Under the pieces are notes generated by a model. The model was not told the DNA's origin, did no database searches, and saw nothing but the letters and a program-made list of their open reading frames with translations. Both the position numbers and the translations under genes were made by a program. A stretch of 19,071 bases of DNA, taken from positions 1 to 19,071 of the forward strand of contig NW_021824618.1 in assembly GCF_006345805.1 (NCBI RefSeq), written 5' to 3'. Positions within the stretch are counted from its first letter, which is position 1. Each line of letters begins with the position of its first letter. This stretch comes from Octopus sinensis (Eukaryota). Shown here piece after piece: positions 1 to 6,116 of the stretch.

Positions 1-80
1 CGGACTAAAACAGCTCTAAGGGAAAACCCGACATAGCTGCAGTCCAGAAACTGATGAGAGGAAATGAATAAAAGAACAGA
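1..80 (+). mobile_element. Degenerate 3' tail of a tRNA-derived SINE
   Basis: GACTAAAA...CTGCAGTCCAGAAACTGA...AATAAAAGA resembles the tail GACTAAAGG...CCGCAGTCAAATGGCTGAAACAAGTAAAAGA of the full copy at 13056-13441. Confidence 0.5.
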
Positions 81-498
81 CATACACATTCACACACAAA
101 CACATACATACATACATACATACATACAACATACATAACATACATACTACATACATACATACATACACACACATACATACATACATACATACATACATAC
201 ATACATACATAATACATACATGCATACATACATACTAGACATACATCATACATACATAACAATACATACATACATACATACATACATACATACTCAATAC
301 ATACATACATACATACATAACTACATACTACCACACATACATACATGCATAATACATACATACATACATACATGCATACATACTAATACATACATACATA
401 CATACATAATACATACATACATACATACATACATAATACATACATACATACATACATACACACATACTACATACATGCATACATACATACATAATACA

Positions 499-530
<32 letters not shown>

Positions 531-735
531 CATACATACATACATACATACATAATACATCAGCATACATACATAATAAATACACCATACACACATACAC
601 ACATACATACATACATATACATACATACAACATAATACATACATACATACATACATACATACATACATGCATACATACATACATACATAACATACATAAC
701 ATACATACATACATACATGCATACACACACATATA
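81..735. repeat. Imperfect (CATA)n microsatellite
   Basis: Directly visible. It produces the spurious MYVC/HTYI ORFs. Confidence 0.97.
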
Positions 736-759
736 CAGCAAATAAGAAAGTAGAAAAGA

Positions 760-1988: not shown

Positions 1989-2026
<38 letters not shown>

Positions 2027-2029
<3 letters not shown>

Positions 2030-2140
2030 AAAAAATGAATCGAGGTGGCTTTTTCGATAATTTCTCCACTTTAATAATTAGATGTTTTATTATTAAAGTG
2101 GAAAAATTATGAGAAAAGCAATTTCAATTCATTTTTTCAA
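2027..2140. repeat. Imperfect inverted repeat (~52-bp arms)
   Basis: TTGAAAAAATGAAT...CCACTTTAATAAT / ATTATTAAAGTGG...ATTCATTTTTTCAA, abutting a (TA)n tract. Confidence 0.85.
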
Positions 2141-2225
2141 AAAAATCATTTTAAACCAAAGACTTTCTATTTCTTATTCTACTGTTATAATACATCCTTC
2201 TGATATATGTATATATATATATATA

Positions 2226-2755
2226 CACTAAATTTATCAAGCTTCTGTGTATCTAGTACATACTTCGCCTTTAATGTACTTATATATGAATAATATATGG
2301 CCTGTGCTAGAAACACCAGCGATAATAATTAATTTTATTTTATCGCATTCTGACTTTGTTTACATATTTCTCGATGAATTTTGAGCGTTAGACTATATAC
2401 CAGAAATCCCTAGTTTGTTGGGTACGTTCTGCGTCTGCGCAGTGATCTGATTAGTTAGAAAGAGCAAATCAGTAGACGCACATGTGTCTATCGAGATGCG
2501 ATCTCAAAATAACAGGAATCTTACTGAAGAGCCTACCTGAGTAAATAAATATTATTTTTATTGCTGAAATAGGCGAAACTGCAGCCTAAGAAGAACCGAG
2601 TTAGTAAAAGTTTTTATTCTCATTTCACTAAATTTATCAAGCTTCTGTGTATCTAGTACATACTTCGCCTTTAATGTACTTATATATGAATAATATATGG
2701 CCTGTGCTAGAAACACCAGCGATAATAATTAATTTTATTTTATCGCATTCTGACT
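2226..2755 (+). mobile_element. Retrozyme/Penelope pLTR-like element: 400-bp unit with 130-bp terminal direct repeats
   Basis: 2226-2355 equals 2626-2755 (offset 400). There is an internal hammerhead motif and (TA)n on both sides. Confidence 0.75.
2519..2591 (+). ncRNA. Type I hammerhead ribozyme motif (C3-G8 core; U16.1 replaced by C)
   Basis: TCTTA-CTGAAGA-GCCTA..34 nt..TAGGC-GAAA-C-TGCA-G-CC-TAAGA. Stem I is TCTTA/TAAGA, stem II is GCCTA/TAGGC and stem III is palindromic CTGCAG. The cleavage triplet reads GCC instead of GUC. Confidence 0.8.
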
Positions 2756-2760
2756 GACTT

Positions 2761-2804
<44 letters not shown>

Positions 2805-2812
<8 letters not shown>

Positions 2813-3321
2813 GTTGTATACTGTCAATCTAACAAGAACGTGAAAGTAGGGGGTACACCACCGCTGTATAGCCCTAGGAAGCATCGAACGCCTCCTGATG
2901 GCTTTGACACATTTTTTCTCTGTATCCTTATATACATTTACGAAGGGGAGACAAACACCCCCGGCTACCGGAACTGCATCTAGGTACACGTGTTTCAGGA
3001 TCGTTGTCCTTCATCGGCCTAGAGTAGCAGACACCGGTCAGCTGGTGATATTTGTCTTGACTTCGTAATTGTATATATCTATATTCAGTGAAGTCTATTC
3101 ACTGATTATCAAAATAAGAAATATTGAATTTCTAAATCTCTCGTAGAGACATGTACGGTGGTGGGGCGATAGAATGGTTGTATACTGTCAATCTAACAAG
3201 AACGTGGCAGTAGGGGGTACACCACCGCTGTATAGCCCTAGGAAGCATCGAACGCCTCCTGATGGCTTTGACACATTTTTTCCCTGTGTCCTTATATACA
3301 TTTACGAAGGGGAGACAAACA
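2805..3321 (-). mobile_element. Second retrozyme/Penelope pLTR-like element: 364-bp unit with 153-bp terminal direct repeats
   Basis: 2805-2957 matches 3169-3321 (offset 364, 4 substitutions by eye). There is an internal minus-strand hammerhead and (TA)n on both sides. Confidence 0.75.
2979..3023 (-). ncRNA. Minimal type I hammerhead ribozyme motif (CCGAUGA core)
   Basis: The reverse complement reads TCTAGG-CCGATGA-AGGA-CAACGA-TCCT-GAAA-C-ACGT-G-TA-CCTAGA: 6-bp stem I, 4-bp stem II, palindromic stem III and a GUA site. U4 is C. Confidence 0.85.
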
Positions 3322-3750
3322 TATATATATATGTATGTATATATATACATGAGTGAATGATGCTTTATATGATACAGTGAGGTGGGATAGGTGCATATAC
3401 TAAGCTTGGTGGAAGGCAATGAGAAGAGAGACACCACATAGAGTGAAAGAGAGAAGAATCATAGACGCGTCGAAAAAGGAGAAAGAGTACATATACGTAC
3501 ATATATAGACAAACAGACAGACAGAGGGAGAGGTAGAAAGAGAGAGAGAGAGAGAGAGAGACCAATATGTGAGTATGTGCGTATGAATTGCCATGATATA
3601 GAACCTACAAAGCGGTTAACTTTGTTTCAATTTTTTTTTAAATTTATAATTCCATTTTCAGGTAATAAATATTTTTGTTTTGAAAATTAGCATTTCTTAT
3701 TTCATCATTTTGTATAAATACCGAAAAATATGATAAAAGGGAAATTATAG

Positions 3751-3939
3751 ATTACCATGAAGAATATGTTCTCAAGAAAAATCTCAGCAAAACGCCAAAA
3801 TGTAAAAATGAGCAAGACAAATGAAAACATAGGAAATATAAAAGTTTTATATTTCCTATGTTTTCATTTGTCTTGCTCATTTTTACATTTTGGCGTTTTG
3901 CTGAGATTTTTTTCTTGAGAACATATTCTTCGTGGTAAT
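3751..3939. repeat. Near-perfect long inverted repeat (~93-bp arms)
   Basis: ATTACCATGAAGAATATG...GGAAATATAAAA-G-TTTTATATTTCC...CATATTCTTCGTGGTAAT, centred on 3844. Confidence 0.93.
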
Positions 3940-5488: not shown

Positions 5489-5779
5489 ATAGTGGAGAAG
5501 ATATAATATTGCTATGGGCTCGCCCTATGCAAGAAGTTGAACTTTTTTTGCCCTTGAAACTACATGGACCCTAAGTAAGGCATGTGTAAAATTTGAATGA
5601 AATTGGTTGTGTAGTTCTCAAGTTTTAGGGAATCATAGTGGAGAAGATATGATATTGCTGTAGGCTCGTCCTAGGCAAAAAGTTAAAAAATTTTTTGCCG
5701 ATGACACTCCCCGGACCCTAAGTAAGGCATGTGTATAATTTGAATGAAATTAGTTGAGTAGTTCTTAAGTTTTAGGGAA
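5489..5779. repeat. Two tandem ~146-bp core repeats of the Helitron
   Basis: ATAGTGGAGAAGATAT...GGACCCTAAGTAAGGCATGTGTA...AAGTTTTAGGGAA starts at 5489 and again at 5635. Confidence 0.9.
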
Positions 5780-5845
5780 ACACACAGACAGACAGACAGA
5801 CAGACAGACAGACTGACACGCATTCTCAGTTTTATATATATAGAG

Positions 5846-5847
<2 letters not shown>

Positions 5848-5880
<33 letters not shown>

Positions 5881-5943
5881 TGTATGTATGTATGTATGTA
5901 TGAATGCATGTATGTATGTATGAATGTATGTATGTATGTATGC

Positions 5944-5976
<33 letters not shown>

Positions 5977-6116
5977 TGTATGTATGTATGCATATGTATA
6001 TTTATATATATATGTCTGTATATGTATTTCTTTGTGTGTGCGTGTGTGCGCATGTATGTGTATGTGTATGTATGAATTATGTGTGTATATCTCTTCCACT
6101 CACCTCCTCTCTCTCC

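What the first reader, a model, noticed from the sequence alone, without database searches (positions are those of the whole stretch)
2805..3321. Second permuted unit (364 nt) with a minus-strand hammerhead, tail-to-tail with the first
Seen: 153-bp terminal repeats with 4 differences and a compact hammerhead with perfect stems but a CCGAUGA core. The predicted cut is between 2985 and 2984. It is unrelated in sequence to the 400-nt unit but has the same architecture and shares its (TA)n tract.
Basis: partly seen in the sequence, partly recalled or inferred. Interest (0 to 1): 0.75.

Follow-up and report, generated by a model that had tools for sequence, protein, structure and literature searches.

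The report
Hammerhead retrozyme copy in TA repeat
This stretch is one of many scattered copies of a 364-base non-coding mobile element whose RNA carries a hammerhead self-cutting motif with an unusual core letter; it was likely pasted into a TA repeat by the enzyme of a Penelope-like retrotransposon, so it is a new member of a known kind.

Summary
Bases 2805-3321 are 1.42 head-to-tail units of a 364-nt repeat, with 153-bp terminal repeats that differ at 4 places. The minus strand carries a compact type I hammerhead with core CCGAUGA and a predicted cut between 2985 and 2984.

The unit belongs to a dispersed family in this 2.7-Gb genome. C4 is the family state, not a private change: 146 exact C4 31-mers against 7 U4, and 43 C to 1 T in an unbiased sample. 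It also shows no common variant in contigs of runs under five organism labels. Rfam does not recognise the motif.

Across 176 copies, 140 have their RNA-sense 3' end at one of two sites 55 nt apart, and 100 of those 140 abut (TA)n. The 5' ends vary, and 122 copies sit in head-to-head inverted pairs. This is the insertion signature of Penelope-like elements, and intact ones that end at (TA)n are present in the genome.

It is an animal non-LTR retrozyme, a known kind. The window copy has only one hammerhead, so it cannot itself release a unit-length RNA. Cleavage by the C4 core and expression of the RNA remain untested.

The parts
2805..3321 (-). One insertion copy of the 364-nt retrozyme family, 517 nt or 1.42 units. 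In RNA sense the 5' end is at 3321 (unit position 153) and the 3' end is at 2805 (unit position 1).
2805..2957 (-). First copy of the 153-nt terminal direct repeat. Its changes at 2844, 2919 and 2924 are private or minority states against the family.
3169..3321 (-). Second copy of the 153-nt terminal repeat. It is a partial unit (positions 1-153) and lacks the hammerhead.
2979..3023 (-). Type I hammerhead motif with stems I, II and III, core CCGAUGA with C at position 4, and GAAA.
2984..2985 (-). Predicted self-cleavage site, after A17 (complement of 2985) and before C1.1 (complement of 2984). The family has C17.
   Evidence: Five of 176 copies have their 5' end exactly at the equivalent of 2984.
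2805..2813 (-). Insertion 3'-end site A (RNA ...CCAUUCUAU), used by this copy. The last 3 nt overlap the (TA)n tract.
   Evidence: 74 of 176 copies end here
3114..3122 (-). Insertion 3'-end site B (RNA ...AUUUCUUAU), 55 nt further along the RNA. It is internal in this copy.
   Evidence: 66 of 176 copies end here
2764..2807 (.). (TA)22 microsatellite, the likely target site. It is shared with the 3' end of the neighbouring 400-nt element.
3321..3347 (.). (TA)-rich flank at the RNA-sense 5' end of the copy, likely the other half of the interrupted microsatellite.
2226..2767 (+). Context: a copy of an unrelated 400-nt retrozyme family. Its hammerhead lies at about 2520-2590 on the + strand, and its 3' end faces the same (TA)n tract.

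Best explanation
Bases 2805-3321 are one dispersed copy (1.42 units) of a 364-nt non-coding animal retroelement of the retrozyme kind, whose minus-strand RNA carries a type I hammerhead motif with a family-wide C at core position 4; the copy was likely made by target-primed reverse transcription of a circular or multimeric retrozyme RNA by the enzyme of a Penelope-like element (PLE) at a (TA)n microsatellite, and the hammerhead is predicted to cut between 2985 and 2984.

Shown here:
- the repeat and the hammerhead motif
- the family and its copy structure
- two discrete 3' ends, the (TA)n flanks and the head-to-head pairs
- conservation of the hammerhead and of the predicted RNA pairing
- intact PLEs in the genome that end at (TA)n

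Inferred:
- Loci with two hammerheads are transcribed.
- The RNA cuts itself into 364-nt monomers, which a host tRNA ligase circularises, as shown for other retrozymes in PMC7229834.
- A PLE protein nicks both strands of an AT-rich target and starts cDNA synthesis at one of two internal RNA sites, as shown for the anole element in PMC11167929.
- Going round the circle gives copies longer than one unit, and the two cDNAs meet head to head.

The window copy has one hammerhead and is most likely a dead-end product.
For: Motif: all features except U4 are present, with 1 hit against 0.05 expected per shuffle.

Family:
- 2252 first-look candidates, 40 scored, 95-97% identical.
- 146 exact C4 31-mers against 7 U4.
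- In the sample not chosen by the hammerhead: C4 is 43 C to 1 T, and H17 is C in 48 of 49. Minor-allele frequency is 1.1% in the hammerhead against 2.5% elsewhere.
- The only common variants inside the motif are in loop 2 (3003) and a G inserted in the stem III loop, seen in 25 of 65 copies.
- In contigs of 8 runs under 5 organism labels, no variant reaches 10% at 3011-3017, apart from N7 (3013) and a single contig at 3015.

Predicted RNA structure:
- The circular monomer folds at -117 kcal/mol, z = -6.9, with 64% of bases paired.
- At 7 pairs the common polymorphisms keep pairing. One pair shows a C-G to G-C double change in 4 of 47 copies.

Insertion signature, in 176 distinct copies:
- 3' ends fall at unit position 1 in 74 copies, at position 310 in 66, and elsewhere in 36.
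- (TA)4 or longer follows directly in 52 of 74, 48 of 66 and 3 of 36 (Fisher p = 3e-12).
- 5' ends are spread out, and lengths run from 22 to 921 nt.
- 122 copies sit in head-to-head pairs. In the first 106 copies there were 37 head-to-head pairs against 1 tail-to-tail.
- The two arms of a pair differ at 2.0% of sites, against 3.7% (sd 0.2) for random partners.
- 7-8 of the 176 copies hold two hammerheads 355-366 nt apart.

PLEs in the genome:
- 5029 GIY-YIG candidates, with 147 of 150 scored above the cut-off.
- Open frames of 775-883 aa carry RVT_1 followed by a C-terminal GIY-YIG domain.
- 4 of 4 copies examined of the 781-aa family end directly at (TA)n.

Literature:
- Tandem and inverted copies, the 'tail' and microsatellite bias of PLEs: PMC8557442, passages.
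- Two internal start sites and cutting and extension of both strands: PMC11167929, main text.
Against: - Rfam finds no hammerhead here, neither at gathering score nor at E up to 10. It also finds none in three other family copies, although it does find the neighbouring family's hammerhead at 30.6 bits.
- U4C is reported to lower activity considerably in vitro (PMC3088659, Discussion). Cleavage was not tested.
- No run on record as RNA holds the unit, and all runs laid were contigs. Expression, RNA ends and circles are unseen.
- The unit has no DNA similarity to the 27 PLE loci sampled out of thousands, so the partner is not identified.
- In the anole PLE, hammerhead cleavage was not needed for insertion in vitro, so a circle is not required.
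- The 5'-end hot spot at the cut site (5 copies) has company at unit positions 254 (5 copies) and 99 (4 copies).
- The window copy has no inverted partner.
Confidence: 0.62

Rival explanations
1. The element and its insertion mechanism are the same, but the C4 hammerhead no longer cuts, or cuts negligibly. It would be kept for another role, such as folding or protein binding, and the family would move as uncleaved linear multimeric transcripts without a circular stage.
For: U4C considerably lowers activity in vitro (PMC3088659). Rfam does not score the motif. In the anole PLE, ribozyme mutants inserted normally in vitro and no reads ended at the cut site. Only 7-8 of 176 copies have two hammerheads.
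Against: Variation inside the motif is confined to positions known to tolerate change: loop 2, the stem III loop, N7 and H17. Five copies begin exactly at the nucleotide after the predicted cut, where 0.48 are expected. Copies longer than one unit are common although long source arrays of this family were not seen, which is easier to explain from circles. A viroid with U4C still self-cleaves well enough in vivo to be infectious, as cited in PMC3088659 (I could not read the original paper).
Confidence: 0.22
2. The family is mobilised by a non-PLE reverse transcriptase, such as a LINE that targets (TA)n. The head-to-head pairs would then arise by twin priming.
For: Fixed 3' ends, 5' truncation and inverted joins also occur with LINEs (recalled knowledge). 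No sequence link to a PLE was found.
Against: Both arms of a pair end at the same two specific sites, not at random internal sites. Two alternative ends a few tens of nucleotides apart, partial tandems and a hammerhead are PLE hallmarks. Intact PLEs ending at (TA)n are present. LINEs of this genome were not examined.
Confidence: 0.08
3. The unit is not a separate element. It would be the terminal repeat (pseudo-LTR) of an autonomous PLE, seen as truncated tail-end copies.
For: PLE ends carry hammerheads.
Against: Copies longer than 364 nt always wrap round into the same 364-nt unit, up to 921 nt or 2.5 units. None of the 176 continues into a shared longer sequence. The window has no reading frame of 120 aa or more in the unit. 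The unit has no similarity to 27 PLE loci.
Confidence: 0.05
4. It is an ordinary satellite or segmental repeat with a chance hammerhead-like string.
For: Short hammerhead-like strings do occur by chance in large genomes (PMC3088659).
Against: The descriptor gives 1 hit against 0.05 expected. Copies are dispersed on many contigs with defined ends. The motif is conserved and the pairing is maintained.
Confidence: 0.02

Closest known systems
Animal non-LTR retrozymes (Cervera and de la Pena 2020, PMC7229834; abstract and passages read)
   Same: A non-coding unit within the 170-400 nt range, with low GC (42.9%), a type I hammerhead, head-to-tail repeats and a highly self-paired predicted circle. 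It is species-specific in sequence and co-occurs with PLEs.
   Different: The core has C4 instead of U4 across the whole family, and Rfam's model misses it. Most copies are 0.1-2.5 units and dispersed rather than in long arrays. Seventy per cent sit in head-to-head inverted pairs. RNA circles were not shown here.
Penelope-like elements with a C-terminal GIY-YIG endonuclease, and their insertion products (PMC8557442 passages; PMC11167929 main text)
   Same: Partial tandems, 5' truncation, an adjacent inverted 5'-truncated copy, two alternative ends a few tens of nucleotides apart (the 'tail'), AT-rich or (TA)n targets, and a hammerhead near the start sites.
   Different: It has no reading frame and a 364-nt unit. 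The tail is 55 nt, against the 30-40 bp reported. A possible 3-nt match (UAU) to the (TA)n target exists at both start sites, whereas the anole element starts at a site with no homology to the target.
U4C hammerhead variant of a viroid (Ambros and Flores 1998, known to me only as cited in PMC3088659, Discussion)
   Same: The same core substitution occurs in a naturally propagating RNA.
   Different: There it was a variant in a plant viroid. Here it is the fixed state of a genomic animal retroelement family, seen under five organism labels.
The neighbouring 400-nt retrozyme family of the same genome (window 2226-2767)
   Same: It has the same architecture, a fixed 3' end next to (TA)n, and a type I hammerhead with a short palindromic stem III.
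   Different: It has a canonical U4 core that Rfam scores at 30.6 bits in copy L166. It has one 3'-end site instead of two, forms arrays of up to about 19 units, and showed no inverted pairs in the hits listed.

Membership tests
Type I hammerhead ribozyme (Rfam RF00163) | Core C3-U4-G5-A6-N7-G8-A9 | tested here: not met
   The core reads CCGAUGA, so six of seven positions fit and position 4 is C. C4 is the family state.
Type I hammerhead ribozyme (Rfam RF00163) | G12-A13-A14 followed by the A15.1-U16.1 pair, and an NUH triplet before the cut | tested here: met
   GAA at 2996-2994. A (2993) pairs with U (2986). The triplet is GUA here and GUC in 48 of 49 family copies.
Type I hammerhead ribozyme (Rfam RF00163) | Three helices, with the open end in stem I | tested here: met
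   Stem I has 6 bp, stem II has 4 bp with a 6-nt loop, and stem III has 2-3 bp. Stems I and II also appear in the minimum-energy fold of the circle.
Type I hammerhead ribozyme (Rfam RF00163) | Match to the curated covariance model | tested here: not met
   No match at gathering score, none at E up to 10 on 2000-3500, and none in family copies L010, L016 and L018.
Type I hammerhead ribozyme (Rfam RF00163) | Site-specific self-cleavage | not testable with these tools
   The only hint is indirect: 5 of 176 copies start exactly at the nucleotide after the predicted cut.
Animal non-LTR retrozyme | Non-coding unit of about 170-400 nt with a type I hammerhead and GC below 50% | tested here: met
   The unit is 364 nt with GC 42.9%. 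No frame of 120 aa or more overlaps it.
Animal non-LTR retrozyme | Head-to-tail repeats with a hammerhead in each unit, so that a monomer can be released | tested here: inconclusive
   This is met by 7-8 of 176 family copies. It is not met by the window copy, which has one hammerhead.
Animal non-LTR retrozyme | Highly self-paired predicted circular RNA | tested here: met
   -117 kcal/mol, z = -6.9, 64% paired. Polymorphisms keep the pairs.
Animal non-LTR retrozyme | Expressed as linear and circular RNA | not testable with these tools
   No holder is on record as RNA, and only contigs could be laid.
Non-autonomous element mobilised by a Penelope-like element | Partial tandems, 5' truncation and an adjacent inverted 5'-truncated copy | tested here: met
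   for the family. The window copy is a partial tandem without an inverted partner.
Non-autonomous element mobilised by a Penelope-like element | Two alternative cDNA start sites (the 'tail') and an AT-rich target | tested here: met
   140 of 176 3' ends fall at two sites 55 nt apart, and 100 of those 140 are followed by (TA)4 or more.
Non-autonomous element mobilised by a Penelope-like element | An autonomous PLE in the same genome | tested here: met
   RT plus GIY-YIG frames of 775-883 aa. 4 of 4 copies of one family end at (TA)n.
Non-autonomous element mobilised by a Penelope-like element | Sequence shared with the end of a PLE | tested here: inconclusive
   No similarity to 27 PLE loci, but these are a tiny sample of 5029 candidates.

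The most novel reading that the evidence does not exclude
A hammerhead with C instead of U at core position 4 is the working ribozyme of a whole animal retrozyme family kept across several related species. It may be selected as a slow or protein-assisted cutter that spares the finished RNA circle. Because searches built on CUGANGA and Rfam's model miss it, such families would be undercounted in animal genomes.
Probability: 0.45. Interest if true: 0.55.

Novelty: new member of a known kind. Interest (0 to 1): 0.4.

Why it matters
Retrozymes and their suspected dependence on Penelope-like elements are already in print. Two things here add to that picture.

First, the junctions of 176 copies show the PLE insertion signature directly on a retrozyme: two discrete start sites, TA-repeat targets, and paired head-to-head arms that are more alike than random copies. 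The published argument that I read rests on co-occurrence and sequence likeness.

Second, a core variant (U4C) that is reported to cripple minimal hammerheads is the fixed state of a successful family. If it cuts, it bears on how much core variation natural hammerheads tolerate, and on why circles are not re-cut. It also shows that model-based censuses can miss whole families.

Tried and rejected
- Rfam gave no hammerhead at gathering score or at E up to 10 on the window, and none on three other family copies. The weak miRNA-like matches are TA-repeat or hairpin noise.
- Expression: no RNA holder is listed. Eight runs were laid, all of them contigs, some only guessed to be RNA. They cannot show ends, strand or circles. 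The 'goes back 364' joints also exist in DNA as tandem copies, so they say nothing about circles.
- The search for the autonomous partner by DNA similarity found nothing above TA-rich noise in 27 PLE loci.
- The hammerhead scan of seven PLE loci gave only loose candidates, one repeated at 5,935-nt spacing in L119. I did not pursue them.
- No tRNA-like module is present. I had suspected one from a box-B-like string, GUUCGAUGC.
- The bacterial promoter and terminator scan is not meaningful for a eukaryote.
- A fuzzy-regex extraction timed out and was replaced by blastn.
- The sample was partly chosen by the hammerhead 31-mer and so is biased. I recounted without those loci.
- The apparent 5'-end hot spot at unit position 364 is partly an artefact of broken blast chains.
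- The Ambros and Flores 1998 paper is not held.
- Look-ups of this scan's notes by place and by sequence returned nothing for this genome.

Full report
**Observation.**
- The repeat finder reports a two-copy direct repeat, 2805-2957 and 3169-3321: 153 nt, 97% identical, spacing 364. The four differences are at 2843, 2844, 2919 and 2924.
- On the minus strand I read UCUAGG (3023-3018), CCGAUGA (3017-3011), and AGGA-CAACGA-UCCU (3010-2997). These are followed by GAA (2996-2994), ACACGUGU (2993-2986), A (2985) and CCUAGA (2984-2979).
- This is a type I hammerhead layout with a 6-bp stem I, a 4-bp stem II and a 2-3-bp stem III. The cut is predicted between 2985 and 2984.
- A descriptor written for this layout finds this one site in the window on both strands. 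It finds 0.05 sites per dinucleotide-shuffled window (100 shuffles).
- The only departure from the consensus core is C at position 4.

**The family.**
- The window lies in a 2.72-Gb genome of 13,516 contigs. The 364-nt unit has 2252 first-look candidates. The 40 that were scored are 95-97% identical and lie on many contigs.
- The exact 31-mer across the core with C4 occurs 146 times, and the same 31-mer with U4 occurs 7 times.
- Loci chosen by that 31-mer would bias any count. I therefore recounted on loci chosen by whole-unit similarity or by a 34-mer outside the hammerhead. There C4 is 43 C to 1 T, and position 17 is C in 48 of 49 copies.
- So C4 is the family state, and the A at 2985 is private to this copy. 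A is still an allowed base at that position.
- C4-G5 is a CpG, so the few U4 copies may be deamination products. One head-to-head pair carries U4 in both arms (two matches 280 nt apart on opposite strands), which suggests that a U4 template also moved.
- Contigs of eight public runs under five coded organism labels were laid on the unit. They show no variant at 10% or more in 3011-3017, except at N7 (3013) and in one divergent contig at 3015. They show T>G at 2985 throughout and a common change in loop 2 (3003).
- Within the genome, the only common variants inside the motif are that loop-2 position and a G inserted in the stem III loop, seen in 25 of 65 copies. These are positions where hammerheads tolerate change.
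- Minor-allele frequency is 1.1% in the motif and 2.5% elsewhere.

**RNA structure.**
- The window's own monomer, taken as a circle, folds at -117 kcal/mol. Dinucleotide shuffles give -80 ± 5, so z = -6.9, and 64% of bases are paired. Stem I is extended into a long imperfect rod.
- In 47 copies spanning the rod, the common polymorphisms at seven predicted pairs all keep a standard pair (G-C, G-U or A-U). One pair shows C-G to G-C in 4 copies.
- This count is informal. The structure came from one of the sequences, and related copies are not independent.

**How copies are built.**
- I collected 176 distinct copies from loci, and oriented them in RNA sense.
- The 3' end falls within 3 nt of unit position 1 (...CCAUUCUAU) in 74 copies, and within 3 nt of position 310 (...AUUUCUUAU) in 66. 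It falls elsewhere in 36.
- (TA)4 or longer follows directly in 52 of 74, 48 of 66 and 3 of 36 (Fisher p = 3e-12).
- 5' ends are spread over the unit and lengths run from 22 to 921 nt. Copies longer than one unit always continue round into the same unit.
- 122 of the 176 copies sit in pairs whose 5' ends meet within -12 to +10 nt, with the 3' ends pointing outward. In the first 106 copies there were 37 such pairs against 1 tail-to-tail pair.
- The arms of a pair differ at 2.0% of shared sites, against 3.7% (sd 0.2, minimum 3.1 in 500 draws) for random partners. The two arms were therefore likely made in one event from one template or from near-identical templates.
- The depth profile of contigs is lowest just before position 310 and highest after each end site. 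This fits two start sites with 5' truncation.
- Five copies begin exactly at the nucleotide after the predicted cut, where 0.48 are expected. That hints at run-off on cleaved RNA. But positions 254 and 99 are also hot spots, and several copies begin 3-5 nt upstream of the cut, so I treat this as weak evidence.

**Which enzyme.**
- Each of these features is described for Penelope-like elements. Partial tandems, an adjacent inverted 5'-truncated copy, a short optional 'tail' and microsatellite bias, including (TA)n, are in PMC8557442 (passages).
- The purified anole element cuts and extends both strands of an AT-rich target. It starts cDNA at two internal RNA sites, and the interval between them is the tail (PMC11167929, main text).
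- This genome has 5029 GIY-YIG candidates, and 147 of the 150 scored pass Pfam's cut-off. Open frames of 775-883 aa carry RVT_1 followed by a C-terminal GIY-YIG domain.
- In the four copies of the 781-aa family that I examined, the shared sequence ends directly at (TA)n.
- I found no DNA similarity between the unit and 27 PLE loci, so the partner is not identified. LINEs were not examined.

**The window copy and its neighbour.**
- The copy runs from unit position 153 at 3321 round to position 1 at 2805, and contains the hammerhead once. It cannot release a unit-length RNA and is most likely a dead-end insertion.
- Its two 153-nt ends should have been identical when made from one template. Three of the four differences are private or minority states of the first repeat, and one is private to the second. 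That is about 1.3% change per site since insertion.
- It is flanked by (TA)22 at 2764-2807 and by TA-rich sequence at 3321-3347.
- The 400-nt neighbour belongs to an unrelated family of 811 candidates. That family has a fixed + strand end at its position 142, next to the same (TA)n tract, and forms arrays of up to about 19 units.
- Its hammerhead has a canonical U4 core, and Rfam scores it at 30.6 bits in copy L166. The window copy of it has a private U16.1-to-C change at 2585, which 0 of 48 other copies share.
- The tail-to-tail arrangement is therefore best read as two independent insertions into one microsatellite, not as one paired event. Paired events give head-to-head joins.

**Comparison with what is known.**
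- The element fits the animal non-LTR retrozymes of Cervera and de la Pena (PMC7229834: abstract and passages) in size, GC content, hammerhead type, self-pairing and co-occurrence with PLEs.
- Those authors name PLEs as the likely mobilisers. A 2026 preprint argues the same from co-distribution and sequence likeness in vertebrates (10.64898/2026.07.22.740005: abstract, section 14 and passages). In the passages I searched, it does not mention tails, or retrozymes lying in inverted pairs or inserted at microsatellites.
- U4C is known as a natural viroid variant that lowers activity in vitro but still permits infectivity (PMC3088659, Discussion; the original paper is not held).
- One full-text search for 'hammerhead' with 'U4C' returned only that paper. 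I did not search further for C4 retrozymes, so I do not claim that this is unpublished.

**Verdict.** This is a correct catch of a known kind of element. Two modest additions are a family-wide C4 core that Rfam misses, and junction-level evidence for Penelope-type insertion. Cleavage, circles, expression and the partner's identity are untested.

Noticed in passing
window 2226-2767 (+); L166; G000:C9:51659327-51666970: The neighbouring 400-nt unit is a second, unrelated retrozyme family with 811 candidates. It has a canonical type I hammerhead (CUGAAGA core, GUC site) that Rfam RF00163 scores at 30.6 bits in L166, a single fixed 3' end at unit position 142 next to (TA)n, and arrays of about 19 units. 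The window copy has a private U16.1-to-C change at 2585, which likely disables it.
   Followed up: partly
L118, L119, L123, L124 (G000 C6:12729500-12737500, C1:207473500-207481500, C1:135605000-135613000, C19:35623000-35631000): A young PLE family, with copies 98-99% alike and an open 781-aa RT plus C-terminal GIY-YIG frame. Its 3' end (...TTTTTTACAA) abuts (TA)n in all 4 copies examined. L119 and L124 also have a 479-aa upstream frame with no clear Pfam match. L119 has a hammerhead-like CUGACGA...GAAA motif repeated 5,935 nt apart.
   Followed up: partly
window 3777-3911: A perfect 67-nt inverted repeat with a 1-nt spacer (arms 3777-3843 and 3845-3911, 100% complementary), forming a 135-nt perfect palindrome.
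   Followed up: no
window 2040-2127: A long AT-rich hairpin that Rfam scores weakly as miRNA-like (mir-576, 34.6 bits, far below the gathering score of 99). It is probably a repeat-borne foldback.
   Followed up: no
window 5489-5782: A tandem duplication of a unit of about 146 nt (5489-5635 and 5635-5782, 84-88% identical).
   Followed up: no
window 60-750 and 5830-6000: Long (ACAT)n and (ATGT)n microsatellites in opposite orientation. With the many (TA)n tracts, they make the window very rich in simple repeats.
   Followed up: no
family copies, unit positions 254, 99 and 3-7: Extra 5'-end hot spots occur at unit positions 254 (5 copies) and 99 (4 copies). Several copies stop a few nucleotides past one full turn, which could mark a stop where the enzyme meets its own starting point on a circle.
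   Followed up: partly
window 2854-2887, seen in contigs of other organisms' runs: Many contigs match only this 34-nt block and then diverge on both sides. Related but distinct families therefore share this block, and its role is unknown.
   Followed up: no
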